NCBI GenBank assembly: GCA_965231145.1
Contig: OZ246420.1
Location: forward strand, 690,001-722,000
Reading direction: 5' to 3'
DNA from: Candidatus Saccharimonadota bacterium
GTDB taxonomy: Bacteria; Patescibacteriota; Gracilibacteria; Absconditabacterales; Absconditicoccaceae
Length of the DNA: 32,000 bases
Position numbers and translations under genes: made by a program. Numbering within the stretch: the first letter of the stretch is position 1; each line of letters begins with the position of its first letter. Shown here piece by piece: positions 6,783-32,000 of the stretch. The notes under the pieces were generated by a model. That model was not told the origin of the DNA. It did not search any database and saw only the letters and a list, made by a program, of their open reading frames with translations.

Positions 6783-7026
6783 TTTACCATTGGTTATGGG
6801 GTAAAACTTCACTGCGCTGAGTATATCTATTGAAAGAGAAAAAGCAATCACAAAAAGGGTAAAATTCACCATCAATAGGAGACCTCAACCACATCTTTAT
6901 AATGTATTTTCTCTATGTCAATATACACTTCTCTTGCAAAAGAACAAAACTCTTCAAGTTTTTTACTATCCACACAAGTTCACTACAATGAGAGTATTAT
7001 ATTATATTCTTTTTCCATCTATCATC

Positions 7027-10000
7027 ATGAAAATACGCAAACATCACCGAGGGATTGCCCTAAGTTTTATCGCGATCAGTACTCTCTATTATTTCTGAAT
7101 GACAAGTCAGAAATCTTCTGCTGCTATGCTGGACTGTGCATCAGCGATGAGTATTACAGTACCGGTACAGGAGTGTCAGGGACTTGTAGAGCTCTTCAAT
7201 AACATGAATGGAGCTTCATGGACCAACAGTACAAACTGGAATCTTAATATCAATGTTTGTACTTGGTACGGAGTATCCTGTGCATTCCTTGATGGTCAGC
7301 GGCACGTGACCAGACTTTCTTTGGTAAATAACAATCTTTCTGGAAGTGGACTTCCGGCGAATATGTCTGGACTCAGATATATCACCGGTCTCGATTTAAC
7401 AACAAACCCCATAAGAGGAACCCTTCCATCAGAATGGTCAACGTGGACAGGAATACAAAGCTTTGCAATTTCACCAGCATATTCATTTCTCCTCTCAGGA
7501 ACATTACCTTCTTCATGGTCTACATGGACAAAGATCAAATACTTCAAAATTGGTCATGGTAATATCCAAGGTAATCTTCCTAGTTCTTGGTCTACATGGA
7601 CGGGTATACAACATTTTGAAGTAACACAAAATAACCTTACCGGAACATTACCTACTTCATGGTCAACGTGGACGGGTATCCAGCACTTCGGAGTAAGCGA
7701 CAATGACATAGAAGGATCGCTGCCATCAAACCGGTCAGGATGGATCAATATGTCATGATTTATCGCTTCCAACAACCAACTTACCGGCACACTTCCTACC
7801 TCGTGGTCAACGTGGACGAAGATTACTTCATTTGCTATTGATGGTAATCAAATCTCATGACCACTGCCTACAACCTGGTCAACATGGACGAAAATGAAAC
7901 GCTTTGGGGCAGGTAGCAATCAGCTAACAGGAACATTACCATCATCTTGGTCGACATGGACTGGTATCAATGTCTTTGAAGCCGGGAACAATCAGCTTAC
8001 CGGAACGCTTCCTTCTTCGTGGTCAACGTGGAGAAATCTTACATACTTTAGCGTACAAAATAACAAACTTCGTGGAACATTTCCATCAACTTACTCAGCA
8101 TGGAATTCGTTTGATGGACTTATTACTGTTTTCCGTAACAACTTTTTTGAAGGAGATATTCCTGCATCCTGGATAGGCATGACGGGGCTTTCAGCAACCT
8201 TCCTTAATAACAACTGTCTCAATCCCGTACAACCTAATCCTCCTTCAACATTTATCAATAGTAAAGCAGAAATCGGCTGGACAGGCACACAAACACACTG
8301 TGGAACCGATCTCGTTATTACTAAATCAAATAGCGCCTCTACAGGACTTATCGGATGAACATTCAACTATACTATTCACTATCTCAATAGCGGAGAGAAT
8401 GCTGTGACTTGAGCAAGCATCATCGACTACCTCTATTTATCTACAGGAGTTATGTTCGTCAGTTCTACTCCGACATTCACGAGTGAAACCGATGGGATGT
8501 ACTATTGGGATATTGGGACTCTTGAACCAATGCAATCCGGAGATATCGTTATCACTGTATCGTTCTCTGGGGATTATTTCTCTTCTGGAGACACCGTAAC
8601 AAACTATGCTGCTATCGGAGGATGGTATACATATGACCCAAATGAACTAAATAACGAAACCACTACTCCACCGGTCACACTTTTTGCTCCTGGAGCGACA
8701 GCTTCTGATCTCGTCATCAACAAGGTGAACGGAGCAGATACTGGTACTATCGGCGAACCTATTTCATATATTATCTCGTATTTCAATAGTGGAGACGTCA
8801 CTATTACAGGCACAAACATCTCTGACAGTCTACCGGGAGGTTTCAATTTCACAAGTGCATTTCCTGCTCCTACGCTTATTACTGGATCAGAGTTGTTCTG
8901 GGATATCGGAACTCTTACAGCGATGCAAAGTGGCATCATTATCATCACGGGATATGCAAACGAAACACTCGGATCCGGGGATGTTTTAGTAAACATGGCC
9001 GTGATCAATGGAATTCTTGATGACTATGATAACAATAATAATGTCTCTTTCACTTCACCTATCATACTTTTTGGTCCTACTATCTATTCGGATCTTACCA
9101 TCACGAAAGTAAATAATGCCGTAACAGGAACGATCGGTGGACTGATAAGTTATACTATCAATTATACAAACAGCTGAGCACAAACTGCTTCATGAATAAC
9201 TATTACTGATAGTTTACCTTCCGGATTATCTTTTGTTAGCGCGTTCCCAGCTCCTACTATAGCTACGTGATGAGATCTCTTCTGGAGTTTTGCTTCTCTT
9301 ACAGCAATGCAAACAGGCAAGATTATCATCACGGGATACATTGAAAATACTCTTGCTTCCGGAGATAGCATCATCAATACAGCTATCATTGATGGACTTG
9401 TCACTGATACTGCTACAGGAAACAATACTTCTACTACCCCACCCGTAACTGTTGTTGATCCTATTATATTCTCTGATCTCACGATTACTAAATCGAACAA
9501 TGCATCTACTGGCACAGTAGGTAGTCAGTTCAGCTATACGATCAATTATAGAAACAGCGGTGCCACTATGATCACAGGAATATCTATCGTTGATAGCCTT
9601 CCTGCCGGATTGTCCTTTGTCAGTGCTGCGCCAGCACCAACCATAGCTACATGAGGAAATCTCTTCTGGAATATTGGTACGCTGACTGCGATGCAATCAG
9701 GAAGCATTATCGTCACAGGATATCTTGAAAATACATTGTCATCCGGAGACACCATTATCAATACTGCTACTATTGATGGATTTCTTACCGACACTGTTAC
9801 AGGAAATAATTCCTCTACAACTCCTCCGGTAATTATATTTGATACGATAACATATGGGGATCTTAACATAGAAAAGATTGCAAATCAACTGACAGGAACA
9901 GCAGGAAACATCATCTCATATCTTATAAGGTATGTAAACGCAAGCTGAGCTCTTTCTCCTCTCTCTAGCATTACTATATCAGATCTTATTCCTGCAGGAC

Positions 10001-11316
10001 TGACATATATTTCCACAGACTTCTCATGATCTGCTGCAGACTTTAGCACAGGTATTACTGCTACCGGTTCAAATGTGACATGGAATATATGGAATGTAAC
10101 ATGATCTACTATCATGTCATGAGCATTCACTATCTATACCCAGATAGGAGCAGGCGTAGCATCAGGAACAGTATTGATGAACAGAGCGACTATCTTGAGT
10201 AGCGATATCATTGATATCTCTACAGGAGACAATACAGGTGTTGCTTCGGGCGTACTTGTCTTTGGACCACTTGTTACAGGAAACATGTCTGTCTTTAAAT
10301 TTACGGCAAATCCTATAGCTATCGCTTGAGACATCGTTTCATATATGCTGACATATCAAAATGATGGCGAAAGCACAGAAACAGGCATCTCTCTGATAGA
10401 TATTATGGATGATGGACTTACGTTCCTCGCAACAAACTTTACGACTGGATTGACTATTACTCCTATCGTCACTGGCGGCACGATCTTACACTGGAATATT
10501 ACCGGAAGCATCCTTCCTCACACATCAGGATCAATCCTTGTTTCAGCTATGGTAAACACCGGCGTTACTTCAGGAACTATCCTAGCAAACCACATCACTA
10601 TTACAGGAAATCGTACAGATACAAATCCGACATATGACTCAGACGTAGCATTCATTAATGTCATGGCTATCCCCGACGATCTGAGCGGAGGAAGTTATAG
10701 TACAACAGGAACCTCTACTGGCAATACGCCAACACCTCCAAACAATGATTCACGAGGATACGCAGGTGGTGGATTTGGAAGCAATCCTACGCCAAATATT
10801 GTCACACTCGGATCAGCTCCTACCCTCCTTGAGGATGAAGTATGTCCGTATAAAGATGGCGACTTTGAAAGATATAAAACAACTTTTAAAGATATTCAAA
10901 ATAGCGTCTTTAAACCAGCTGTAGATCTTATGCTCGACTACTGTCTCGTACAAGGTGAATACAACGGAGGAAAGATGTTTGGAGTATATAACTACCTCAG
11001 ATGGGGTGAAGCATATAAGGTATTCTCAAGACTTGCAGGTCTCAGCTTCTCTCGTACAGCCAATCCTGCTCACTGGTCAGACAGATATAGATTTGCTGGA
11101 CAGAAGGTGCATCTGTGGAATAGTATTACGTCACAGCGTCATGATCCAAGATCATATATCACGTATGCGGATATCTTTACACTCGGGAACAATCTTCTCA
11201 AATACTATAAGAAACCTCTTCTCGAGTACGACCCAACACTTAATTACAACAACGCAATCAGCAGAGGTAAATTTGCTCTGTTCATCCAAAACATTATCGG
11301 AAGAATCAAAAATTAA
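7027..11316 (+). CDS. Giant secreted surface protein: signal peptide, LRR repeats, DUF11 (conserved repeat domain) repeats, SLH-like C-terminus
   Basis: Six track ORFs (7099, 7894, 8452, 9307, 9691, 10345) are all in frame 1 and are separated only by TGA (about 15 in-frame TGA, no TAA/TAG). Start ATG 7027 ('MKIRKHH.GIALSFIAISTLYYF'). 1429 codons. Stop TAA 11314-11316. Confidence 0.85.
7318..8170 (+). repeat. About 11 LRR-type 24-aa coding repeats (consensus N.LTGTLPSSWSTWTGIQ.F)
   Basis: Read directly: 'GTLPSEWSTWTGIQSF', 'GTLPSSWSTWTKIKYF', 'GNLPSSWSTWTGIQHF', 'GTLPTSWSTWTGIQHF', 'GSLPSN(CGG)SGWINMSGF', 'GTLPTSWSTWTKITSF', 'G(TGA)PLPTTWSTWTKMKRF', and others. Confidence 0.85.
8304..10650 (+). 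repeat. About 6-7 DUF11-type ~125-aa coding repeats
   Basis: Recurring 'DL.ITK.N....G.IG...SYTI.Y.NSG......I.I.DSLP.G.SF.SA.PAPT......LFW.IGTL.AMQSG.III.TGY' with high nucleotide similarity between units (e.g. around 8910, 9300, 9680). Confidence 0.8.
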
Positions 11317-11408: not shown

Positions 11409-11419
11409 AACTACAATTG

Positions 11420-11492
11420 AGCGAGATACCGGATTCGAACCAGTGACCTCATCCCCCGGAGAGATGTGCTCTACCATCTGAGCTAATCTCGC
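11420..11492 (-). tRNA. tRNA with anticodon CCG; acceptor end looks tRNA-Gly-like, not Arg-like (identity uncertain)
   Basis: Minus-sense GCGAGAT TA GCTC AGATGGTA GAGC A CATCT CTCCGGG GGATG AGGTC ACTGG TTCGAAT CCGGT ATCTCGC T. Clean cloverleaf with canonical T loop. G1-C72, C2-G71, G3-C70, U73. U rather than A at position 20. Confidence 0.8.
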
Positions 11493-11569
11493 TGGTGGGC
11501 AGATTGGGAGTCGAACCCAAGACCTCCTGATTAAGAGTCAGGCGCTCTAGCCAGCTGAGCTATATGCCC
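11493..11569 (-). tRNA. tRNA-Lys (anticodon CTT), CCA encoded
   Basis: Minus-sense GGGCATA TA GCTC AGCTGGCTA GAGC G CCTGA CTCTTAA TCAGG AGGTC TTGGG TTCGACT CCCAA TCTGCCC A CCA. One acceptor mismatch (T6/C67). Abuts the next tRNA with no spacer. Confidence 0.9.
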
Positions 11570-11597
11570 TGCTTTATATAAAAGCGAAGTACTTAGT

Positions 11598-11625
11598 ATG
11601 ATATCTATTAGTCCTATAGAGTCAA
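11598..11625 (-). promoter_or_regulatory. Candidate sigma70-type promoter for tRNA-Lys/tRNA(CCG)
   Basis: Minus-sense TTGACT (11620-11625), 16 nt spacer, TATCAT (11598-11603), about 25 nt upstream of the tRNA-Lys 5' end. Confidence 0.4.
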
Positions 11626-11639
11626 CAGATTTAGGATAT

Positions 11640-11805
11640 AAAAAAAGCTTATAGGTTGATACCCTATAAGCCCCGGCTAAACCTGTAAGTAACTCACCGG
11701 TGGTCCAGCTATGGTGCCCCATGCGGAATTGTAACTAAGTACCCTAAGGTACCCCGAAGAGTCATAATATCTCCTCTGCAGGCACTCCACGCGTAGCCTT
11801 CCCTG
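11640..11805 (-). ncRNA. Candidate structured small RNA of unknown class, co-transcribed downstream of tRNA(CCG)
   Basis: A ~165-nt non-coding stretch, conspicuously GC-rich relative to its flanks, that starts right after the tRNA 3' end. It contains a C(UUCG)G hairpin (ACUC-UUCG-GGGU), a GUACC-UUAG-GGUAC hairpin and the palindrome CACCGGUG. It ends in a strong terminator GCTTATAGG-gtatcaa-CCTATAAGC + TTTTTTT (11640-11671). I could not match SRP, RNase P, 6S or tmRNA motifs. Confidence 0.45.
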
Positions 11806-11876
11806 TAGCCCGAACAGGATTCGAACCTGTACCAACAGAGACGGAGTCTGCTATCCTACCGTTAAACCATCGAGCT
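11806..11876 (-). tRNA. tRNA with anticodon CCG on a tRNA-Trp-like body (candidate CGG decoder)
   Basis: Minus-sense AGCTCGA TG GTTT AACGGTA GGAT A GCAGA CTCCGTC TCTGT TGGT ACAGG TTCGAAT CCTGT TCGGGCT A. A1-U72 first pair. The anticodon loop CUCCGUC differs from the tRNA-Trp loop CUCCAAA at positions 36-38. U37 is unusual. No A20. Weak D stem. Confidence 0.75.
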
Positions 11877-11885
11877 AGAAAGCTC

Positions 11886-11913
11886 ATTATAAGCATGAAC
11901 TTCATAAATACAA
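11886..11913 (-). promoter_or_regulatory. Candidate promoter for tRNA(CCG) + downstream RNA
   Basis: Minus-sense TTGTAT (11908-11913), 16 nt spacer, TATAAT (11886-11891), 9 nt before the tRNA 5' end. Confidence 0.5.
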
Positions 11914-12028: not shown

Positions 12029-12385
12029 TTATAATGTGTTTCACAGAGCTGATCATGAGCATTTTTTATCAACACGTATATCGAACTCTTTACCGGACTG
12101 TGCAAGTCTATATGTTCCTACCTGCATATAGGTATCCACATATGACGGGATAAATGGTCGGTTGCACTTTATCGCTAATTCGCTATATTCGTCTCATGAA
12201 ACTCCTTCAAAAGATCAATTATCTCCTCGGGAAAATCGCTCAGTGAGGCATATGGATCTATCAGTTATTGCTCTCTCCGGATAAAGGCATCCCATCGCTC
12301 TGGCTAAAGTGAAAAATATGTTCTCATGTTCCTCACTGTAGTGCATATGGGAAACAATGCTTTGAAAGATATGGCTTTTGGCCAT
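12029..12385 (-). CDS. Hypothetical protein; possibly frameshifted/decaying (alternative 3' end at 11927)
   Basis: ATG 12383-12385 opens a 118-codon frame (TGA as sense) ending at TAA 12029-12031. This frame has 3 CGA codons, which are rare elsewhere. A second frame carries protein-like segments ('DPYASLSDFPEEIIDLLKEFHETNIAN', 'IKNAHDQLCETHYNHAHAYITQSILEQKKLWSDEKYLGNILEVIGLK*'). The frames switch at an A6 run. Confidence 0.35.
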
Positions 12386-12432
12386 GATTTTTGTATACTG
12401 TTGACAGAATTAGCTCGTGTACTCCAAAGCCT

Positions 12433-13434
12433 ATGAAACAGTACGATCCATCTCACTACAAAGTAGTTTTCTTCTCTTCTGCTCCGATCGGAGTTCCTTT
12501 TCTTGAACAGTTAGCAAAGGATAAAAGATTTGAAATTGCTGGAGTTGTCTGCGCTCCTGACAGACCATCCGGTCGTGGCATGGAAGTGCAACAAAATATT
12601 ATTAAAAAAACCGCATTTCAGATCATAGAGCAAAGAGCAGAGAGCAGAATTAATTGAGAATTGAGAATTGAGAATTGAGAATTTCCTATATTAACTCCAA
12701 GTAAAATTAACCCAGAAAAAAGCGATGAATGAAAAGAGTTCTATGAACAAATAAAAGCTCTTGATGCCGATTTTTTTGTGGTGATTGCGTATGGGAAGAT
12801 TATGCCGCAAAGCATATTAGACATACCAAAGCTTGGACCAATCAATGTGCATCCATCACTCTTGCCGAAATATCGCGGCGCCTCACCTATCATCTCTGCG
12901 CTGTTGCATAATGAGACTATGACGGGCGTGACGATCATGTACATGGATGCAAAGATGGATGAAGGAGATATCCTCTCCTCTCTTGGATTTTCTATCGATC
13001 CGTCATGGAACGAAGCAGACCTTACTCATAAGATGACACAAATCTGACCAGAGCTTTTGTGTAATACACTATGGGATTTCGGCAAAGAACATATCAGCAG
13101 AAAACCTCAGGATCATAGCAAAGCAACATATGCGACAAAGTTTACCAAAGAAGACGGCAAAATTGATCCGCGACAAGACTCATTACAAACTATTTACAAT
13201 AAATATCGTGCATTCTATCAGCGACCAAAAATTTTCTTCATACACAACGACAAGAGAGTCATCATCGAAAAAATGGTCTTCGACCATACCCCGACAGCTC
13301 GTCGGGGTGAAGAAAAAATGATAGATGAAAATAATCAGTTACACGCTTCTATCCTGGAATGTATGGTGAAACCGGAAGGAAAAAAAGCTATGAGTTGGGA
13401 AGAATTTAAAAGAGGATACATCCATATGAAATAA
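12433..13434 (+). CDS. fmt: Methionyl-tRNA formyltransferase
   Basis: Track ORFs 12391, 12778 and 13057 are all in frame 1, joined over four TGA. 'KVVFFSSAPIGVPFLEQL...VVCAPDRPSGRG', 'FFVVIAYGKIMP', 'GPINVHPSLLPKYRGASPI', 'ETMTGVTIMYMDAKMDEGDI', 'PQDHSKATYATKFTKEDGKID'. Carries a repeat-derived insertion at 12622-12683. Confidence 0.9.
12652..12683. repeat. Heptanucleotide microsatellite (AATTGAG)x4.6 inside fmt
   Basis: Units at 12652, 12659, 12666 and 12673, plus a partial unit. Encodes 'N-G-ELRIEN-G-EF' with two TGA codons. Confidence 0.9.
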
Positions 13435-16258: not shown

Positions 16259-16756
16259 TTAAAAATCATCTTCCTGAGGATATTTCTTTGCGTAATAATC
16301 ATGCCATTTTCTATTATCCTCTGTATCTTGTGGGATCTCTTGTTTGAAAATATATCGTCCCTGCGCAAATGAACCTCTCTCTTCTCTGTCTTGTAACTGT
16401 ACTTTTTCAAGCTCAGTTGGATCGATGCTATATTTTTTACTTATAGTATCGATAATATCACGAAACGATTTTAACTTCTCCATATTTTCTCACATATCTG
16501 TCAGGACATCTATTGCCTCTTTGATATCCTTCATTTCTTTCATCAGCTCTTTTTGTAATTCGTCGAGTTTTCTTGTCGTATCTTCATGAAGTTCTTTTAC
16601 TAGTTGATTCAACTCTTTTAGTTCCTCCTCTGCCTTTTCATACAGAGCATCTATCAGTGCTTTTCCAGTTTTTTTCATGCACAAAACCTTCCATCCCATG
16701 AGAAGCTGCTTATCGATGAGCTTGTCTCTATACAGTTTATTGATGACAAATACCAT
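16259..16756 (-). CDS. MazG-like / phosphoribosyl-ATP pyrophosphohydrolase-like all-alpha NTP pyrophosphatase family (paralog 1)
   Basis: Track ORFs 16490..16756 and 16259..16483 are joined over TGA 16490-16492. N-terminal 'INKLYRDKLID' (compare the KLVRDKIPE family) and C-terminal 'REERGSF'. Confidence 0.5.
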
Positions 16757-16780: not shown

Positions 16781-17227
16781 TTACTCTTGTATTGGATATT
16801 TTCATTTCACCAATAGGTCATAGACTTCTGGAACATCTTTAGAAACAGTAATATCTTCAATGTAATATCACTCAGTAAAGCTTCATCGACTCGTTTTTCT
16901 CGAGACCTGCATATCAAGAATGGTTTTTAACTGTATAGCATGTGTATGTAATATCTGGTTGATACGTTGTTGTTCCGGTAGAAGTTCTATTGGATTAGCA
17001 TCATGCGATATAAGTGATTCAACTATTTCCTTTGCGTCAGCAACATGCTCTAGTAGTTTTCCATCGGTAGAAGGTGTTTCCCCCAGCTCCAATGTGTGGT
17101 ATAACTTTTCCTTCAAGGCTTGTATAAGTTCCTCTCCAGTAAGATTTTTATAGGTGACCTTACACCTGCTCAATAATTGTGGCACCATCCTATCTCTCAC
17201 CAATCTATTTATCTGAAAAGTAGTCAT
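16781..17227 (-). CDS. MazG-like all-alpha NTP pyrophosphatase family (paralog 2)
   Basis: 'MTTFQINRLVRDRMVPQLL...NLTGEELIQALKEKL...'. Continues past TGA 16883-16885 ('SR-G-SFTEGYYIED') to TAA 16781-16783. Collinear with paralog 1. Confidence 0.5.
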
Positions 17228-21384: not shown

Positions 21385-22248
21385 CTACGAGAATAGTTTT
21401 CCCAAATACCCATCTTTCTGCCAGAAACTTCCGTCTGCAAAGACTATCACGCCGGTGATATCTTTTTCGACTGTAAGCAGCTGTTTTCCTTTTTCCGGTC
21501 ATGAGACAAATACAGCAGTGCTATAAGCGTCAGCGAGTAATCATGTGGGAGCTGCGATGTAGACGCCGGCGATGGAAACGATAGGTTCGCCGGTGTGTGC
21601 ATCAAGCAGATGATGAAACTCCCCCACTCTTCTCTTTGCGCCATTGCTTGATGCGACTGAAAATCCATCCACGTGTATGGTTCAAATAAGCCGAGAAAGA
21701 TCGAAAGGATTTTCGAGCCCGACATCATATCAACCATGAGCGATGATATCGCCTCCGAAATCCAAAAGAAAATGAGAAAATCCTGCAGTGAGGAGCCTGT
21801 GGGAAAGTTTGTCCAATAGATATCACTTTCCGACTGAGCCAAATTCGATTTTTACACCGTGGTGTAAGATCACGGAGTGATCGGAAATTTCAACGTGCTG
21901 ATATCCCATGGATCATCACGCTTTACGTTGAAATGAATAGGTATGATCGTATCAGTATGATTCCAGTGTTGAGATAATAGTAGGATCAAATGCTCCTCAT
22001 GTTTTATGAGCAAGATCCAGTGAAAATATGAGAAGTTCATATGCTTCGTCATCAAGCGGGATAGGTTGTTCTTGTGTTTTATTGATTGTATCAAGCCGAT
22101 TTCCAGGAATAAATCTGGAGTAACGCTCTTCAAACTTTTTGCATATCGAAAAACAATCCTGCACAAGCTGCGTAGGATCGTTTTCAGAAAGAATATCTAT
22201 CGTCAACACCGAGCCGCATGACTCCTGACGAAACACGTACTGTTGCAT
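21385..22248 (-). CDS. apbE: FAD:protein FMN transferase (ApbE family)
   Basis: '..SRFIPGN.LDTIN..', 'T-G-GAFDPTI', 'ESY-G-YD', 'GSVGK-G-YLLDK', 'LDFGGDIIAHG', 'HHLLDAHTGEP', 'LADAYSTAVFV'. About 10 in-frame TGA. Stop TAG 21385-21387. 287 aa. Confidence 0.9.
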
Positions 22249-24019: not shown

Positions 24020-24592
24020 ATGAAAAAATTACTTACTATAGGATCACTTATAGCAGCAGGCACACTAATCAGTGGATGTACCTTACAGAATACCAATAAT
24101 AATCACGTTATGATGAGTGGGCACTCTATGAACCACGACATGGATAATAACATGATGATGCACGACATTGAAAATGAAGAAGAATTTATCATCAATATGA
24201 TACCCCATCATCAAGAAGCTGTTGATACTGCACAGATCGTCGTAGCACAATCTACCAATAGCGATCTTAAGAAACTTGCTCAAAATATTATCGATGCTCA
24301 AACCAGAGAGATCACTATGATGAATGGTTGGTTACAACAGCGGTATCCAAATAGCACTATCAAAAGCAACTATCAAAATATGATGCCCGAGCTTACAACT
24401 CTGACAGGAGACGCTTTAGATACCGCCTTCTTACAGTGAATGATAATACATCATATGTGAGCAATTCATATGGCGCAAAGCGTATTAAAAGCGGAGCATA
24501 GAACTGAAACCATGACTCTTGCCAATAATATTATCAGCACACAACAGCAAGAAATTGTGATGATGAAAAACATGTTACAAAATATCAAATAA
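24020..24592 (+). CDS. DUF305-family lipoprotein (copper-stress associated family)
   Basis: Lipobox 'LISGC'. Met/His-rich linker. Two DUF305 half-repeats: 'FIINMIPHHQEAVDTAQ...LAQNIIDAQTREITMMNGWL' and 'FLQ-G-MIIHHM-G-AIHMAQ...LANNIISTQQQEIVMMKNML'. Stop TAA 24590-24592. Confidence 0.8.
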
Positions 24593-25601: not shown

Positions 25602-27608
25602 TTACAGTCTCATTAGCATAAGCATCGCCCATCATCTTGGAAGCGGACTAAATAGATCTGTCTTCACTTTTATTACTCATAATTCATGCAGTTTATCTAC
25701 ATGTTTCACATACCGGTTCTCGTCATCTCCATTATAGGCTGATCCATATAATAACCTGGAGAGGATAGTTGCGAATTGTGCCTTAGTAACTGCTTCATCC
25801 GGATTAAAGTTTTTATTTACCTCATTAGTCACATTATTGATACCCATCACACCGAGCTGACATGCAAGCTTCGCATATATCTGATATTCTGCATCACCAT
25901 TTATCATATCATCAAACGCACACTCTCTGCTCTCATCCGGTTGCTTGTCCAATACATTGATCGCGTAATTACTGATCATTTTTGCCGCATCTCTTCTGAG
26001 TAATACTCATGTCATATTTGCCTTGATACAATCTGACATAGTTGTGATGCTGTGGCCATATGCAAAGTTATATGCATCATTCATCTCTCATTCCATACAG
26101 TTGAGCTGCTGTGGCTGTGCAACAATCTCACTTGATGATAAAATCTCAGATGAACTATCCGTATTATCATCCACCTGTTCTGTGGTGTCCTCTGACTCTA
26201 TCGTTGTTCAGGTAGCGGCGACAGTTGTTCAGGTAGCGGCGACAGTTGTTCAGGTAGTATCAGATGTAACTGCTACGCCTCATTGCAACAGACTCATTCA
26301 CTCACACAAACCATCATATTGCGTGGGAGATATATCTCCATTGGGACAGTTATCTACTGGTGCACGATAGACTTTTCCAGCTCACTGAAGAGCAGGACTA
26401 TTATCTCATGCTGATGCTATCAAACGAGTCATATATGGATCAGAAATGGGTGAGCCATTAAAATACTCAAAGTATCCAGCTACAATAATACTACCATCAT
26501 TATGCAACAGATGAGTATTAATTTCAGCATCAAAACCTGAACCTCCTACGAACGAGCTATCAAGCACCCCATTACTATCCAAACGAGCTATACGATTTGC
26601 TTCTACCCCACTATAAGAAGTAAATGCACCTCCCAGCAATATAGAATCTCCAGTTTCAATGGAGACAGATATCGGCACGTTATTAAATCATCCCCCCATA
26701 GTAAAACTTGTATCGAAACTTCCATCTGTATGTAAACGAGCTATGCGGTTTGCAGTATGACCATTATAATCAGTAAAAGAACCAACTGCAATTATCTTTC
26801 CATCTGACTGTGCAACAATTTGATATACATGGTGATTGAAACCAGAACCAACATTGAAACTATTATCTATAGTAGCGTCCTCATTCAAACGAATAATACG
26901 GTTTGAACTAACTCAACTAAAGTGAGTAAACTGTCACGCGGCAATTATCTTCCCATCGCCCTGTACAATCAATGACGACACCTCAAATTGACTAGTAATT
27001 TCACCGCTAAATAGACCGTTAGCTATATTAAATCACGTATCTCTCGTTCCATCTGTGTTGAGACGGACAAGAGCCCTCGTACTAAATCATGAATAGTTAC
27101 TAAAGTTTCATCATACAAGGAGTTTTCAATCTGTAAGTTGTTTGATCACACTTACCTGCTGACTGGAAGTGGGGAAACCCGAACCGATCTGAAACGTATT
27201 GTCTCTCGTCCCATCACTATTGAGACGCACTATACGATTGGTTGTAACACCACTAAATGATGTAAAACTTCCTCACACAACGACTTTACCATCCTGCTGT
27301 AACTCAATAGAAGCTACCGCGCTATTAAATGTACCAATAACATTAAATCACGTATCTCTCGTTCCATCTGTGTTCAAACGCAACACCCTACTCGCAGATA
27401 GTCCATTAAAATTACTAAAATATCCCGCAACGAGAATTTTACCATCGGGTTGTTCTATCATCTTCAAAGGTACATTATCAAGACCACTTCCTCCAGAATC
27501 GAATGTAGTATCAACCATCAAACCCGCAAATACAGCTCACGCATGAAATATAAATATACTCATTGCAATGACAGAGATCAAAACCCTACTATACTTCTTC
27601 ATAGACAT
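25602..27608 (-). CDS. Secreted delta-60/beta-propeller-repeat surface protein with Thr-rich linker and SLH-like C-terminus
   Basis: One frame from ATG 27606-27608 ('MSMKKYSRVLISVIAMSIFIF') through track ORFs 26688..26888, 26406..26678 and 25677..25979 to TAA 25602-25604. About 7 units of '..DGK....G.F..(F/Y).G.....R(I/L).RL..DG..D..F..G.GF'. More than 20 in-frame TGA, many on the repeat glycines. Confidence 0.8.
26203..26258 (-). repeat. 21-nt in-frame tandem repeat (2.7 units)
   Basis: GTTGTTCAGGTAGCGGCGACA at 26203 and 26224, partial at 26245. Encodes 'T-G-TTVAA' heptads with G = TGA each time. Confidence 0.9.
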
Positions 27609-27865: not shown

Positions 27866-28348
27866 CTAGAAAATACTTTTAATGAATTTATATTCTTGTC
27901 TTTCTTCTATTCGGGGAAGATATTTTCATAGCTCAGACAATTTAACTTTTTTGACATATTTTATTTCTTCTTGCTTTGATTTTTCTTTATCTTTTTTTTG
28001 TATTATTATATCATGTAGTTGAATATATAATCTAAGTTACAGAATACTATCTAACGAAGCATTTTCACTTATCTCATAAAATCCAAAAAGATTTATTTTA
28101 GCCGTATGCTCTTTAAGAACAATATTGGTCTCCTCCTCTACTTCTCTGATTCATGTTTCAAAAATATTCTCATTCATTTCTGGTTTTCATCAGGGCATTT
28201 GCCACTCAGCTCAATTCTTAGAGACGATTATTACATTATTATCTTTATCCAAGATTCGAACATATACTTGTGATATTTTCTTTCCTCTTGGAAGATCTTC
28301 TAATGAATTTGTACTATACCAAACTCTAGTAATATTACTCTCTTCCAT
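27866..28348 (-). pseudogene. Nudix hydrolase interrupted by an in-frame TAA (pseudogene or read-through)
   Basis: 'MEESNITRVWY...WQMP-GG-KPEMNENIFET-G-IREVEEETN' is a full Nudix box (GG = TGA TGA 28187-28192). TAA at 28037-28039 after only 103 codons. The same frame stays open for 56 more codons to TAG 27866-27868 and encodes a Nudix-like C-terminus 'QEEIKYVKKVKLSELGKY'. Confidence 0.6.
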
Positions 28349-28422
28349 GAAATCTTTTCATATATAAATATTATAGCTTACTTAATTTTACACTTATCAT
28401 TTCATTTTTCCATAAATAAAAA

Positions 28423-28626
28423 ATGGCTTATTATAGCCACGAATGAAGCATTGGAGAACGTCGGGCACTTTTCGAACACTTATACTCAAACGTATTGTGA
28501 AAAGCCAATATTAGATATATTGGTAAATTAATGCAGTATTATATCAAAGAATTGGAAGGAGGGAAGGAACTAGAAGAAAGCCTTACGGAGAGGCAGAAAG
28601 TACTGTATTGATTAAAGCTTTTTTAA
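28423..28626 (+). CDS. Small hypothetical ORF (67 aa)
   Basis: ATG 28423 to TAA 28624-28626 with three in-frame TGA. No motif, in an AT-rich region, so it may be spurious. Confidence 0.25.
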
Positions 28627-28742
28627 GGATTTGAGATGTTTTAAAGAGTACAAGTTCATAGGATTTGAACTTAATAACATATTGATATATAGAGGACAAA
28701 AGATAAAAAGTGGCTTAAACTTATTTATAAGGAGAGCTAAGT

Positions 28743-30125
28743 ATGTGCAAAGGCGTATTTCTTTCATTTTTACCGTGTCAATTGCTAGATCCGACTTTAA
28801 TACGAAGTTCGGCAATCACACTTTTCTTATCTCTTTTATTACATTTTGTTCTACAGCATCGTTATAAAAATAGCTTAGAAAAGGAATTAGAGCAATATAA
28901 GCAAGCATTAAGTGAACAAAGTGAAGTATTTAAACATAAGTTAGCTCTATTTCAGAACTTTTTCATACAAGAATATCTACCTAAAAAACACCCAGACGCA
29001 GATAAAGACACTATTATGCTAGAATATTACTGAAAAATTTGATTATTGTGAAATATGAATACATTAAAAGCTATTGTGGACTCAAAACTTACAGAGTTAG
29101 AGCCAAACAAAGACGATATAGAGCAAACATACGCTTTATTGCTATCTCTAAGGCAAGAATTGAATTCCAATCTTAAAAATGATCCATCTATACTTGCAGA
29201 TTATGTAAAAGTTTTGTTTCAGATTTTCACTCCTATACCACAGTTTATTAGTGAAGACAGAAAAGTACAAACAGGTACAGTTCACTTTATTAACAAAGAA
29301 AAAATCAGCTATACCGAATTAGGCTCTTTAGTTGCCCTAAAAATGGGAACAGCATTAAAAAAACTGAGTAAGTGAGACGAGTTTGAATATATTAGAATTA
29401 AAGATATTAATTCTTTCAATAATGTACAATGAGAATTTTATAAGTTACCTTTACATTCAAAAGCATTTGATCTTGAGAATATACTGCTAGTATCAACTAT
29501 ATGAACTATTGGCAAGTTAGCTTTTATTAGAAATAAGACTAATGCCATTATATCGGGTAATTTGGCTTTTGGAAAAATTAATCCACAAATAATCAATCCT
29601 AGTTTCCTTGATCTTATATGGCAGACAGATTATGTTCAGTCTCAGTTAAGGTTGTTTTATGCGTGAACAGTACAAAAGTTTATTCCTTTATTTTCTCTTA
29701 AACAAATTACACTTCCTCTCTTACCTATCGAGGATCAAAATCTCTTGATTAAAAGAGCAGAGACAGAAGGCAAACTTATTGCCATCCAAGATTTTAATAA
29801 AGTATTACCTAAATTTCTTTCTAGAGAAGAATTATTAGCTTCTCAAATATATGATAGATATTGTAATCATCCAGCTATTCAAAATATTCAATTATCACCT
29901 ATTAATTTATTTGAAGGAATAGATTATGTTCCAGATATTTTTATTGAGCTAAAAAATTGACAGAAAATAGTGATAGAGTTAGTCAATGTAGATATTAAAA
30001 GAAATGATGCTTCTAGAATAAAATTCTTCCAGTTGGCGCCTGATCTATGATATTGTATGTCTTTTATGTATGAATATGACTTAAAATCTATACAGGAGAC
30101 AATTAATGACTTTATAAGTGATTAA
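28743..30125 (+). CDS. HsdS-like (type I R-M specificity) single target-recognition-domain protein with extra N- and C-terminal regions
   Basis: Track ORFs 28743, 29055 and 29745 are in one frame, joined over nine TGA. AAGGAG lies 8 nt upstream of the ATG. The core 'ELGSLVALKMGTAL...ILLVSTI-G-TIGKLAFIRNKTNAIISGNLAFGKINPQIINPSFLDLIWQTDYVQSQLRLFYA-G-TVQKFIPLFSLKQITLPLLPIEDQNLLIKRAE' follows the Methylase_S/HsdS TRD plus conserved-helix pattern. Stop TAA 30123-30125. Confidence 0.65.
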
Positions 30126-30141
30126 TCTGTAAGGAGTATAT

Positions 30142-30339
30142 TTATTCTTTTTCTAGTGGTCTTTGTGATTCTATTTTCAATCTCTTTTCTCTAGCTAATC
30201 TCTCGTTTCTTAAAGCAGTATTTCGTTTCATCATCCAAGCATAATATTTAGGATCATTTTCTTTTGTGACACTCATAAATAGATTAAAAACTTCTGTTAA
30301 TGCTTTTCATAAACCGTGGTCATCATCCTTCATATCCAT
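30142..30339 (-). CDS. Small hypothetical basic protein (65 aa)
   Basis: 'MDMKDDDHGL-G-KALTEVFNLFMSVTKENDPKYYAWMMKRNTALRNERLAREKRLKIESQRPLEKE*'. Convergent with the HsdS-like gene. Confidence 0.35.
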
Positions 30340-30458
30340 TTGTTATATAGCAATAAGATAAAAGGACATAATACATACTAATTTAAGTTAGTAAAGAAAT
30401 TGCAAAGTAAGGCATTAATCTTATATTGACGTAAATTTAATTACGTTATTTTATAGAT

Positions 30459-32000
30459 ATGTGAAGTATAATTAAGGAAAATAGTCCTTATATCCCTAGA
30501 TTAATAGGAATATATTTTGCAGAACCTTATAAAAGATTTGATAGATGAACAATTATCAATTTATCGCAAGATTATAATATTAGTAAAACTCCTCAATGAA
30601 ATGAATTTAGTGAATTTGATACTTCAAATTCTATTGATTTGTATGTGGAAGAAGAATTATGAGCAATAGTATTAAACATAGAAAAAACATTTAAAGATAC
30701 ATTTGGAAGAGTTTTATCTAACGCTATTGAATGATATTCAAATAATATTTCCACAAGAGCTATAATATGAGATAATTGAGCGGGGAAATCAACTATTTTA
30801 GAACTTATAGAAGGATTTTATAAAACAGTTAGTCGTAAAATTATTGCTGATTCAATTAATGAATTAAGAGAAGGTTTGGGTTATGTTAATTCTATTATTC
30901 CAGGCATAGTTTTTATAATCGTATGTAAAGATATTAAATGAAAAATAAGACATAAATTAGTAAATCTAACAAGAACTCAAGGTATATTAAGCTCTAAGAA
31001 TGAACTTAAATCAATCATTTTAGAAAATTATGATTTGTTAGGATCAGTATTAACGGATCATTTACATATTTGTAAAAACAAAGAGGATGCCGTACCAGTA
31101 ATAAATTTACGCTTACCTAACTTTTCACGTAAAAGTTGAAGAGAAAACATTATACCTTACTGGAACTCTTTAACTATATTTCTCTTTAATCTCATTAAGG
31201 AAGATAATGTTGAAACGTTCTTTCCAAATAACGAAGAAGCAAATTTATTAAATTGATATTTTCTTACAATATATCAATATTTAATAGAAAATAAGATCCC
31301 TAAAGAATCGATAATCTTCTTTTTCCTTTTTTATCATTTAGGATCTTTTGAATATGTGTCTCGCAAAGACTTAAAATATGATCCTCAAAGTGAAGAATAT
31401 AAACAAGTAATATTAGCCCATCAGATTACTATAGATATATATAAAGAAATTGCTCAAAAACATAAATCTACAGAGTATAATGATATAATTTCTAAATTGC
31501 TGTCATTAATAAATGCTTATCAAGATAGTCAAATAACTATTAGTGAAGTAGAAAGCAGAAAAGGATCTGATAGACTTGCGATTAATATGAAAGTTCCACT
31601 TTCTCCTGAATTAAAACTACCAAATATGTATAAATTCATTTTTGAAATCATACCCAAGCATTTAGTGAATGATTTAAAAGTTAGATCTATTCTAGAATAT
31701 AATTTAACTATTCCAATTGCGACTTTCCTTAATAATTTAACTAATATCGAAAACAATGAAACAAAGAAAGATCTATTAAAAGCCATTAAAAATCATTGGC
31801 TATTTACGGTAAATGTTAAATTGCAAACTCCCTCAGGGATACATTATCTCGACTCACTATCATCCTGAGAAAAACAAATGATATTACTTTTTTCTCGCAT
31901 AAAAAATAATATTTCTTCGTATTATGAGAACCCTATTAAAGATGAAGAAAACCAAAAGACATTGCCACATTTGATACTGCTTTTAGACGAGCCTGAAAAT
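30459..32000 (+). CDS. ABC/OLD-type (AAA_15/21-like) P-loop ATPase, 3' end beyond window
   Basis: A single frame is open from ATG 30459 to the window end (TGA as sense, about 12 of them). Walker A 'II-G-DN-G-AGKSTILELI' (30762-30800). A roughly 400-aa helical insert follows. Walker B 'LILLLDEPEN' occupies the last 30 nt of the window. Confidence 0.8.

What the first reader, a model, noticed from the sequence alone, without database searches (positions are those of the whole stretch)
11420..11876. Two different tRNAs with anticodon CCG, neither Arg-like, in one tRNA cluster
Both CCG tRNAs lack A20, the main ArgRS determinant in bacteria. 11806-11876 has an A1-U72 first pair (a tRNA-Trp hallmark). 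Its D arm GUUUAACGGUAG resembles Firmicute-type tRNA-Trp as I remember it. Its anticodon loop CUCCGUC is the Trp loop CUCCAAA with A36 changed to G, and it has an unusual pyrimidine at position 37. 11420-11492 has G1-C72/C2-G71/G3-C70 plus U73, the bacterial tRNA-Gly acceptor signature. Its loop CUCCGGG has a C32-G38 pair that could form and shrink the loop to 5 nt. Two isoacceptor-like genes with the same anticodon but different identity sets would give ambiguous decoding unless one is inactive or regulatory. tRNA-Lys and the Gly-like tRNA abut with zero spacer: the encoded CCA ends at 11493 and the next tRNA starts at 11492.
Basis: partly seen in the sequence, partly recalled or inferred. 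Interest (0 to 1): 0.8.

Follow-up and report, generated by a model that had tools for sequence, protein, structure and literature searches.

The report
Two odd CGG-reading tRNAs in SR1
An uncultivated SR1 (Absconditabacterales) bacterium that already reads the arginine codon CGG as tryptophan carries, side by side, two unusual tRNA genes for that codon, one tryptophan-like and one built like a glycine tRNA; the recoding is published, the glycine-like gene is not.

Summary
ARAGORN and the Rfam tRNA model both find three minus-strand tRNAs: tRNA(CCG) "A" at 11806-11876, tRNA-Lys(CUU) with encoded CCA at 11493-11569, and tRNA(CCG) "B" at 11420-11492. Both CCG tRNAs have U20. B starts directly after the CCA of Lys.

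The window is Absconditabacterales: TGA codes for Gly, and CGA/CGG code for Trp, as published by Shulgina & Eddy (2021). In 36 ortholog pairs, window TGG aligns with CGG or CGA 21 times. Arg codons never do (0 of 343). Five of the window's eight CGG codons sit at Trp positions, and none sits at a clear Gly or Arg position.

Neither gene is the class's canonical Trp-type tRNA(CCG), which has A1-U72, G3-C70, G73 and loop CUCCGAA in 35 distinct sequences. A shares its architecture but has C3-G70, A73 and U37. B has the full bacterial Gly acceptor set and resembles tRNA-Gly end to end.

The cluster is absent from syntenic relatives, and no homologue turned up in the patterned collection scans.

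Most likely A serves CGG=Trp and B is a Gly-derived paralogue with little decoding impact. Ambiguous Trp/Gly decoding is not excluded.

The parts
11806..11876 (-). tRNA(CCG) 'A'. It has A1-U72, C3-G70, A73, U20, loop CUCCGUC (U37) and a 4-nt variable loop, and is 71 nt long. It is a divergent relative of the class's Trp-type tRNA(CCG).
   Evidence: define the gene. One search aligns it with canonical sequences. The class-specific covariance model scores it 56.7 bits, the best of the three tRNAs.
11886..11913 (-). Promoter-like element for A: TTGTAT, 16 nt, TATAAT, with the -10 box ending 9 nt before A1.
   Evidence: Read from the sequence. The first hexamer matches 3 of 6, below the scanner's threshold, so one search does not list it.
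11675..11805 (-). A stretch of about 130 nt transcribed after A and before its terminator. It is structured and of unknown nature.
   Evidence: The fold z-score is -2.66 for 11636-11805, terminator included. No Rfam family matches at E<=10 apart from a sub-threshold trpB-motif hit on the terminator hairpin.
11644..11674 (-). Intrinsic-terminator-like hairpin followed by a U run. It ends the tRNA A transcription unit.
11598..11625 (-). Sigma-70-like promoter (TTGACT, 16 nt, TATCAT; 10 of 12 matches) upstream of tRNA-Lys.
11493..11569 (-). tRNA-Lys(CUU) with encoded CCA at 11495-11493 and one U6.C67 mismatch. It abuts tRNA B with no spacer.
11420..11492 (-). tRNA(CCG) 'B'. It has G1-C72, C2-G71, G3-C70, U73, U20 and loop CUCCGGG (G37; C32-G38 can pair). 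Its body is tRNA-Gly-like.
   Evidence: Its best full-length matches are tRNA-Gly in E. coli and in phage records.
11386..11412 (-). Intrinsic-terminator-like hairpin followed by a U run. It ends the Lys-B transcription unit.
6988..11316 (+). Giant LRR + DUF11/CLIPPER surface-protein gene. Together with the tRNA cluster it fills a 5.3-kb gap that is only 170-320 bp in syntenic relatives.
   Evidence: Pfam. Synteny with L105 and L106. Present at the same site in L121.
7300..7302 (+). CGG codon at a Trp position: TGG in the closest ortholog, L121.
7732..7734 (+). CGG codon at the Trp of the SSWSTW repeat: TGG in L121.
22096..22098 (-). CGG codon at ApbE residue 51. Orthologs alternate W (TGG) and CGA/CGG here.
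24341..24343 (+). CGG codon at DUF305/CopM residue 108. It aligns with W in solved homologues and with TGG in L117.
25713..25715 (-). CGG codon at residue 641 of the DUF5122-type surface protein. It aligns with TGG in L105, L107 and L116.
21691..21693 (-). The one CGG codon that does not fit Trp: ApbE residue 186, where 10 of 11 clade orthologs have Gln (CAG in L116 and L117).

Best explanation
The window comes from an uncultivated Absconditabacterales (SR1, class JAEDAM01) bacterium. It reads TGA as Gly and, as already published for this order, CGA and CGG as Trp. ARAGORN's 'tRNA-Arg' label therefore reflects the anticodon alone.

The cluster is a lineage-specific pair of transcription units. 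One holds A alone. The other holds Lys(CUU) followed directly by B.

Shown:
- Both CCG tRNAs are sound cloverleafs without the Arg determinant A20.
- CGG is a Trp codon in this genome and its relatives.
- Neither gene is the class's canonical Trp-type tRNA(CCG).

Inferred:
- A is a divergent descendant of the Trp-type tRNA(CCG). It keeps A1-U72, the same D arm, the 71-nt length and the 4-nt variable loop, and it is the CGG=Trp decoder seen in this window.
- B descends from a tRNA-Gly whose anticodon became CCG. It is co-transcribed with tRNA-Lys and is a plausible GlyRS substrate, because in code-25 bacteria GlyRS already accepts a tRNA-Gly(UCA) that lacks C36.
- B contributes little to decoding, because CGG is kept at conserved Trp sites. 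Its self-pairing anticodon loop (C32-G38, U33.G37) and the missing C36 determinant may keep it weak.
- A single RNase P cut at B's 5' end would also release tRNA-Lys with its finished CCA end. That could help keep B in place.
For: **Genetic code.**
- Long ORFs appear only when TGA is read through.
- TGA falls at conserved Gly positions in SDR, GreA, MsrA, ApbE and DUF305.
- Fmt and ApbE homologues are named SR1 or Absconditabacterales.
- The CGA/CGG->Trp reassignment is published for this order (PMC8629427).
- Over 36 ortholog pairs, window TGG aligns with TGG 35 times, CGG 11 times, CGA 10 times and another codon once. Window Arg codons align with CGR 0 of 343 times. Window Gly codons align with CGR 1 of 860 times.
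- Window CGG codons at Trp positions: 7300 and 7732 (TGG in L121), 22098, 24341 and 25715.

**tRNAs.**
- The canonical class tRNA(CCG) is invariant for A1-U72, G3-C70, G73 and loop CUCCGAA in 35 distinct sequences from 46 loci.
- A aligns with these without gaps and shares the D arm of L064 and L095. It scores best of the three tRNAs with the class-specific model: 56.7 against 52.7 and 47.8 bits.
- B matches the Gly identity set U73, G1-C72, C2-G71, G3-C70 and C35 (table in PMC9976931).
- B's only full-length E. coli matches are tRNA-Gly. Most of its best phage-record matches are tRNA-Gly.

**Expression signals.** Promoter-like and terminator-like sites bracket both units.

**Reality of the locus.** Two independent assemblies are identical across it.
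Against: **Against A as the Trp decoder.**
- A lacks G73, G3-C70 and A37/A38, which are invariant in all 29 reference sequences aligned for the class (27 CCG plus 2 Trp(CCA)) and include the major bacterial Trp determinant. Its charging with Trp is therefore not assured.
- A pyrimidine at position 37 is very unusual for a working tRNA.
- A does not fold to a cloverleaf as its minimum-energy structure, because its D stem is weak.
- The class-specific model prefers A over B by only 4 bits.
- Only 32 kb of the genome is visible, so a canonical Trp-type tRNA(CCG) or a tRNA(UCG) may lie elsewhere.

**Against B as a weak Gly-derived paralogue.**
- B's isotype rests on identity rules and BLAST similarity. 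One good match was a tRNA-Val.
- GCG... acceptor stems also occur in ordinary tRNA-Arg(CCG).
- B's loop CUCCGG with G37 is Arg(CCG)-like.

**General limits.** No homologue of A or B was found anywhere, so there is no covariation or conservation evidence that either gene is under selection. No expression or charging data exist.
Confidence: 0.5

Rival explanations
1. CGG is decoded ambiguously by two competing tRNAs. A (or another Trp-type tRNA) inserts Trp and B, charged by GlyRS, inserts Gly. CGG would then be a dual-meaning codon, or a codon in transit towards a further reassignment.
For: - B has every acceptor-stem Gly determinant plus C35.
- B resembles tRNA-Gly end to end.
- B sits in a unit with a promoter, a terminator and an apparently needed tRNA-Lys(CUU).
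- B's G36-G37 is the motif of m1G37-modified readers of C-starting codons (established knowledge).
- Code-25 GlyRS must tolerate a non-C36 anticodon. This is inferred from the tRNA-Gly(UCA) of these bacteria, for which Campbell et al. 2013 is cited.
- One CGG codon (21691-21693) sits where orthologs have Gln, which does not fit Trp.
Against: - Five of eight CGG codons lie at Trp positions, including conserved ones. Trp->Gly errors there should be costly.
- None of the eight is at a conserved Gly position.
- CGG is not depleted relative to most relatives.
- Across relatives, CGG never replaces Gly codons (0 of 860).
- B's anticodon loop can close to 3-5 nt.
Confidence: 0.15
2. Both A and B are redundant or decaying copies in a recently rearranged region. 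The working CGG/CGA decoders are a canonical G73 tRNA(CCG) and/or a tRNA(UCG) elsewhere in the genome.
For: - Each tRNA in the cluster has a blemish: U37 and a weak D stem in A, a self-pairing loop in B, and a U6.C67 mismatch in Lys.
- The cluster is absent from the same site in five relatives.
- No homologue of A or B was found in the patterned scans of GTDB representatives, JGI metagenomes or IMG/VR.
- The canonical type is otherwise strictly conserved across the class.
Against: - Rfam scores of 55-67 bits are typical of working tRNAs, well above the threshold of 29.
- Both units keep promoter-like and terminator-like signals.
- tRNA-Lys(CUU) is needed for the 176 AAG codons in the window.
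- All acceptor, anticodon and T stems in A and B are fully paired.
Confidence: 0.2
3. B is a remnant of the ancestral tRNA-Arg(CCG) and is still charged, weakly, with Arg, leaving residual Arg decoding of CGG.
For: - B's loop CUCCGG with G37, its variable loop AGGUC and its GCG... acceptor start all occur in ordinary bacterial tRNA-Arg(CCG) (L091, L100 and L012).
- The identity table lists U73 among bacterial Arg discriminators.
- The Gln->CGG change in ApbE would be conservative if CGG were read as Arg.
Against: - A20, the main ArgRS determinant, is absent.
- CGR never aligns with Arg codons in 343 Arg positions across relatives.
- B's best overall matches are tRNA-Gly, not tRNA-Arg.
Confidence: 0.05
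4. The two genes are ordinary tRNA-Arg(CCG) isoacceptors, as ARAGORN labels them.
For: ARAGORN names both tRNA-Arg from the anticodon alone.
Against: - Neither has A20.
- CGG sits at Trp positions and never at Arg positions.
- The reassignment is published for this order.
Confidence: 0.02

Closest known systems
CGA/CGG (Arg->Trp) reassignment in Absconditabacteria, with Trp-type tRNA(UCG)/tRNA(CCG) (Shulgina & Eddy, eLife 2021, PMC8629427)
   Same: The order is the same, and so is code 25. CGG and CGA interchange with TGG at Trp positions, CGG is rare, and the tRNA(CCG) lacks A20 and has A1-U72.
   Different: The published rule for Trp type is G73 without A20. The 35 canonical sequences found here all have G73, G3-C70 and loop CUCCGAA. 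The window's A has A73, C3-G70 and U37, and B has U73. The paper's table records presence or absence of tRNA(CCG) and mentions no second, Gly-like gene.
Competing tRNA(CAG) genes of Ser and Leu type in Ascoidea and Saccharomycopsis yeasts (described in PMC8629427)
   Same: One genome holds two tRNA genes with the same anticodon but different identity sets.
   Different: In the yeasts, expression, charging and (for A. asiatica) stochastic decoding were shown experimentally, and Codetta gave no clear call for the codon. Here codon usage points cleanly to Trp, nothing is known about expression, and the organism is a bacterium.
tRNA-Gly(UCA) of SR1 and Gracilibacteria, which reads UGA as Gly (Campbell et al. 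2013, cited in PMC8629427)
   Same: It is a tRNA with the Gly acceptor set (G1-C72, C2-G71, G3-C70, U73) and C35 but without C36, carrying a non-glycine anticodon in the same bacterial class.
   Different: The anticodon is UCA, not CCG. That tRNA is universal in the class and matches the codon's inferred meaning. B is confined to one lineage and conflicts with the inferred meaning of CGG.
Other bacterial tRNAs for reassigned Arg codons: tRNA(CCU) of Met type in Enterosoma, tRNA(CCG) of Trp type in Anaerococcus, the undefined tRNA(CCG) of Peptacetobacter (PMC8629427), and the Ala-like tRNA(CCG) of RGIG3102 (bioRxiv 10.64898/2026.04.02.715157)
   Same: Each is a tRNA for an Arg codon that has lost A20 and acquired the acceptor features of another amino acid.
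   Different: Each of those genomes has one such tRNA per codon. A Gly-type tRNA(CCG) has not been reported in the papers read here.

Membership tests
tRNA (Rfam RF00005) | Covariance-model score above the gathering threshold (29 bits), with a cloverleaf and a 7-nt anticodon loop | tested here: met
   A scores 55.4, B 60.1 and Lys 67.4 bits. ARAGORN gives the same genes and the same register.
Bacterial tRNA-Arg (ArgRS substrate) | A20 in the D loop, the main determinant | tested here: not met
   Position 20 is U in both tRNAs: D loop AACGGUA in A and AGAUGGUA in B. Identity table.
Bacterial tRNA-Arg (ArgRS substrate) | C35 with G/U36, and an A/G73 discriminator | tested here: inconclusive
   Both have C35 and G36. 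A has A73 and B has U73. These are minor determinants without A20.
Bacterial tRNA-Arg (ArgRS substrate) | The codon it reads encodes Arg in the genome | tested here: not met
   CGG/CGA align with Trp codons and never with Arg codons: 0 of 343 Arg positions.
Class JAEDAM01 Trp-type tRNA(CCG) / bacterial tRNA-Trp | G73 discriminator, the major bacterial Trp determinant and the criterion used by Shulgina & Eddy | tested here: not met
   A has A73 and B has U73. G73 is present in all 29 class sequences aligned.
Class JAEDAM01 Trp-type tRNA(CCG) / bacterial tRNA-Trp | A1-U72 first pair | tested here: met
   Met for A only. B has G1-C72.
Class JAEDAM01 Trp-type tRNA(CCG) / bacterial tRNA-Trp | G3-C70 and anticodon loop CUCCGAA (A37, A38), invariant in the class | tested here: not met
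   A has C3-G70 and loop CUCCGUC. B has G3-C70 but loop CUCCGGG.
Class JAEDAM01 Trp-type tRNA(CCG) / bacterial tRNA-Trp | Overall architecture: 71-72 nt, 7/8-nt D loop with GGUAG, 4-nt variable loop; scored with a class-specific covariance model | tested here: inconclusive
   A aligns without gaps and scores 56.7 bits, against 52.7 for B and 47.8 for Lys. The margin is small and the model is generic (effective sequence number 2.35).
Bacterial tRNA-Gly (GlyRS substrate) | U73, G1-C72, C2-G71 and G3-C70 | tested here: met
   All four are present in B and none in A. Identity table.
Bacterial tRNA-Gly (GlyRS substrate) | C35 and C36 in the anticodon | tested here: not met
   B has C35 but G36. The class's own tRNA-Gly(UCA) also lacks C36, so this determinant may be relaxed there. 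That is inference and was not tested.
Bacterial tRNA-Gly (GlyRS substrate) | Actual charging with glycine | not testable with these tools
   This needs aminoacylation assays or charged-tRNA sequencing.
Genetic code 25 with CGA/CGG->Trp (Absconditabacterales) | In-frame TGA at conserved Gly positions, and CGA/CGG interchanging with TGG at Trp positions | tested here: met
   for TGA. for CGR.
Ambiguous decoding by competing tRNAs (Ascoidea type) | Two tRNA genes with one anticodon and different identity sets in one genome | tested here: met
   A and B.
Ambiguous decoding by competing tRNAs (Ascoidea type) | Both tRNAs expressed and charged, and two amino acids found at the codon in proteins | not testable with these tools
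   Codon-usage evidence shows only Trp.

The most novel reading that the evidence does not exclude
In this SR1 lineage CGG is read by two competing tRNAs of different identity, Trp-type A and Gly-type B. The codon would then be ambiguous (Trp/Gly), or caught in the middle of a second reassignment. That would be the first bacterial case of a competing-tRNA 'ambiguous intermediate', and it would sit on a codon that has already been reassigned once.
Probability: 0.15. Interest if true: 0.85.

Novelty: new variant of a known kind. Interest (0 to 1): 0.5.

Why it matters
Reading CGG as Trp in Absconditabacteria is known only from computational inference. The tRNAs behind it have been described as one conserved Trp-type gene per genome.

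This locus shows a lineage where that picture breaks in two ways:
- The Trp-like gene has lost the discriminator and position-37 features thought to define it.
- A second gene joins the same anticodon to a complete glycine acceptor identity.

If B is charged and used, it would be a natural test of the ambiguous-intermediate model of codon reassignment in bacteria. If it is silent, it shows how anticodon-mutant tRNA paralogues can persist harmlessly, for instance as a processing partner of tRNA-Lys.

There is also a practical point. Annotation pipelines would label both genes tRNA-Arg and translate CGG as Arg, and both would be wrong here.

Tried and rejected
**Searching for homologues of A or B.**
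- I scanned GTDB species representatives with GGTAG-N9-CTCCG-N14/15-GGTTCNANTCC. This gave 103 loci, and none is more than 70% identical to A or B.
- I scanned JGI metagenomes restricted to the loops CUCCG[GU][CG]. This gave 3 unrelated hits.
- I scanned IMG/VR with the first pattern. This gave 3 unrelated hits.
- These scans find exact pattern matches only. Homologues with other anticodons, D loops or T loops would be missed.

**Synteny.** Fmt-anchored loci of five relatives (L105, L106, L107, L119, L120) and ApbE-anchored loci (L116, L117) contain no tRNA. The closest relative, L121 (77% nucleotide identity), has the giant gene at the same site. Its contig ends 57 bp short of tRNA B.

**A conserved protein neighbour of the canonical tRNA(CCG), to use as an anchor.** None is shared widely enough.

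**Native tRNA-Gly and tRNA-Arg of the class, for direct comparison.** None was present in the fetched loci, so B's ancestry could only be judged against E. coli and phage tRNAs.

**An early guess that the CGG at 7300 might be a Gly position.** It aligned with G in a 35%-identical paralogue. I rejected this once the 69%-identical ortholog in L121 showed TGG there.

**The idea that the cluster is phage-derived or an integrative element.** There is no integrase and no specific phage similarity. The adjacent giant gene uses in-frame TGA like the host.

**Rfam search of the spacer after A.** It found nothing above threshold.
Full report
**Observation.** ARAGORN finds three tRNA genes on the minus strand: tRNA(CCG) at 11419-11492, tRNA-Lys(CUU) at 11493-11569 and tRNA(CCG) at 11805-11876. 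The Rfam tRNA covariance model finds the same three, with the same anticodon register, at 60.1, 67.4 and 55.4 bits against a threshold of 29.

I call the upstream CCG gene A (11806-11876) and the downstream one B (11420-11492). Read against the model:

| Feature | A | B |
|---|---|---|
| Acceptor pairs | A1-U72, G2-C71, C3-G70, U4.G69 | G1-C72, C2-G71, G3-C70 |
| Discriminator | A73 | U73 |
| D loop | AACGGUA (U20) | AGAUGGUA (U20) |
| Anticodon loop | CUCCGUC (U37) | CUCCGGG |
| Variable loop | 4 nt | 5 nt |
| Length | 71 nt | 73 nt |

B folds as a cloverleaf at minimum energy. Its anticodon stem can extend through C32-G38 and U33.G37. The region is 100% identical in two independently assembled runs, so it is not an assembly artefact.

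**Whose genome and which code.** Long reading frames appear only if TGA is read through. TGA falls on conserved glycines of an SDR, GreA, MsrA, ApbE and DUF305. Fmt and ApbE homologues are annotated SR1 or Absconditabacterales, and the closest are 62-72% identical. This is a code-25 bacterium.

For this order, Shulgina & Eddy (2021) inferred a further reassignment of CGA and CGG from Arg to Trp. They supported it with tRNA(UCG) and tRNA(CCG) genes that lack A20 and have G73 (PMC8629427).

I tested this on the window and on seven fetched loci of relatives. Over 36 ortholog pairs:

| Window codon class | Aligned codon in relatives |
|---|---|
| TGG | TGG 35, CGG 11, CGA 10, other 1 |
| Arg codons (343 positions) | CGR 0 |
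| Gly codons (860 positions) | CGR 1 |

The window's own eight CGG codons break down as follows:
- Five lie at Trp positions: 7300 and 7732 (TGG in the closest ortholog), ApbE residue 51 (orthologs alternate W and CGR), DUF305 residue 108 (W in solved structures, TGG in L117), and residue 641 of a surface protein (TGG in three relatives).
- One lies in a variable stretch of Fmt.
- One lies in a signal peptide with no aligned counterpart.
- One (21691-21693) replaces a Gln that is conserved in 10 of 11 orthologs.

None lies at a conserved Gly or Arg position. CGG therefore means Trp here. ARAGORN's 'Arg' label is wrong, and a non-Arg tRNA(CCG) is expected.

**How the two genes compare with the class norm.** A scan of GTDB species representatives for U20-type tRNA(CCG) returned 103 loci. 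Forty-six of them, from SR1, Gracilibacteria and allied bins, hold 35 distinct sequences of one conserved type. That type has A1-U72, G3-C70, G73 and loop CUCCGAA, and is 71-72 nt long. In two loci it sits beside tRNA-Trp(CCA).

Neither A nor B belongs to this type.
- A shares its architecture. It aligns without gaps, has A1-U72 and a 4-nt variable loop, and has the D arm of L064 and L095. It departs at C3-G70, A73, U37 and C38, all of which are invariant positions. A covariance model built from the class sequences scores A 56.7, B 52.7 and Lys 47.8 bits. This reverses the Rfam order, but only by a small margin.
- B carries all four acceptor determinants of bacterial tRNA-Gly, plus C35 (identity table in PMC9976931). 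Its only full-length matches in 5,426 E. coli genomes are tRNA-Gly. Most of its best matches among 50,697 phage records are tRNA-Gly, although one good match is a tRNA-Val.
- A has no E. coli match, and only weak matches to phage tRNA-Gln and tRNA-Asp.

**Genomic setting.** Relatives keep the order SLT, PNPase, a 204-aa gene, GreA, a small gene, then YidD-Fmt. Only 170-320 bp separate the last two, and there is no tRNA (L105, L106 and L107). In the window that gap is 5.3 kb. It holds a 1,443-aa LRR + DUF11/CLIPPER surface protein and the tRNA cluster.

A closer relative (L121, 77% nucleotide identity) has the giant gene at the same place. Its contig stops 57 bp before tRNA B. More distant SR1 genomes have no tRNA beside Fmt. 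Pattern scans of JGI metagenomes and IMG/VR found no homologue of A or B. The cluster is therefore lineage-specific, and no comparative evidence on selection is available.

**Expression signals.**
- A TTGACT-16-TATCAT promoter-like site precedes tRNA-Lys, and a hairpin with a U run follows B.
- A is preceded by TTGTAT-16-TATAAT, ending 9 nt before A1 (sequence).
- A is followed by about 130 nt of structured RNA of unknown nature and then a second terminator-like hairpin.

**Most likely mechanism.**

Shown:
- The code is TGA=Gly and CGR=Trp.
- There are two structurally sound tRNA(CCG) genes without A20.
- Both differ from the canonical type.
- B has a Gly-type acceptor stem and body.

Inferred:
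- A is a divergent Trp-type tRNA(CCG) that supplies Trp at CGG.
- B arose from a tRNA-Gly whose anticodon became CCG.
- GlyRS of code-25 bacteria already serves a tRNA-Gly(UCA) that lacks C36, so B is a plausible GlyRS substrate.
- CGG persists at conserved Trp sites, which argues that B competes weakly at most. Its self-pairing loop and the missing C36 are possible reasons.
- With no spacer between them, one RNase P cut at B's 5' end would also create the mature CCA end of tRNA-Lys. That could favour keeping B. This last point is speculation.

**Rival explanations.**
- True Trp/Gly ambiguity: probability about 0.15.
- A and B are redundant or decaying, and a canonical decoder lies elsewhere: about 0.2.
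- B keeps residual Arg acceptance: about 0.05.
- Both are ordinary tRNA-Arg: refuted.

The main weakness of the preferred reading is that A lacks G73, the major bacterial Trp determinant, and has a pyrimidine at position 37.

**Comparison with what is known.** The codon reassignment, and the existence of Trp-like tRNA(CCG) genes in this order, are published. I did not find the following in the papers read:
- A Trp-like tRNA(CCG) with A73, C3-G70 and U37.
- A second, Gly-type tRNA(CCG) in the same genome.

The nearest analogue for two tRNAs with one anticodon and two identities is the Ser/Leu tRNA(CAG) pair of Ascoidea and Saccharomycopsis yeasts. The nearest analogue for a Gly tRNA with a foreign anticodon is the class's own tRNA-Gly(UCA).

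**Verdict.**
- Most of what looked strange is explained by a known alternative code.
- What remains is a modestly novel variant whose functional meaning needs a complete genome, tRNA-seq, charging assays or proteomics.

Noticed in passing
L108 684-757 and 787-863 (IMGVR_UViG_3300035145_002017); also L109 9327-9400: A viral contig carries two different tRNA(CCG) genes side by side. One is Arg-type with A20. The other has U1-A72, A73 and a Glu/Gln-like D arm. A second viral contig has the latter type. This may be a phage-borne parallel to two identities on one anticodon.
   Followed up: no
window 11675-11805 (-): About 130 nt lie between tRNA A and its terminator. With the terminator included (11636-11805), the region folds better than shuffled sequence (z -2.66). 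It matches no Rfam family. It is not a tRNA, and its nature is unknown.
   Followed up: partly
window 21691-21693 (-): ApbE codon 186 is CGG where 10 of 11 clade orthologs have Gln (CAG in L116 and L117). It is the only window CGG that does not fit Trp. It could be a tolerated Gln->Trp change or a hint of another reading.
   Followed up: partly
window 12154-13434 (+): YidD and methionyl-tRNA formyltransferase form one continuous reading frame. The same fusion appears in many SR1 relatives.
   Followed up: partly
window 6988-11316 (+): This is a 1,443-aa surface protein. It has an LRR N-terminal cap, about ten LRR units carrying a 'SSWSTW' motif, six DUF11/CLIPPER domains and an SLH-like tail. 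It is absent at this site in L105 and L106 and present in L121.
   Followed up: partly
window 28000-32000: GC content drops to 27-29%, against about 39% elsewhere. The region holds an ABC/AAA_21-like ATPase (30459-32000, cut by the window end) and an unannotated 461-aa protein. It may be a defence or mobile island.
   Followed up: no
window 16259-16756 and 16781-17227 (-): Two tandem paralogous small proteins end in an RGSF-type motif. In one copy a CGA codon aligns with the other copy's Arg. That is the only CGA in the window that looks Arg-like rather than Trp-like.
   Followed up: no
protein database hits P0003, P0005, P0121, P0125 and others: Public translations of SR1 genes mix codes. Some show W where TGA (Gly) is meant, and all show R at CGA/CGG Trp positions. 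W and R in these records therefore cannot be taken at face value.
   Followed up: yes
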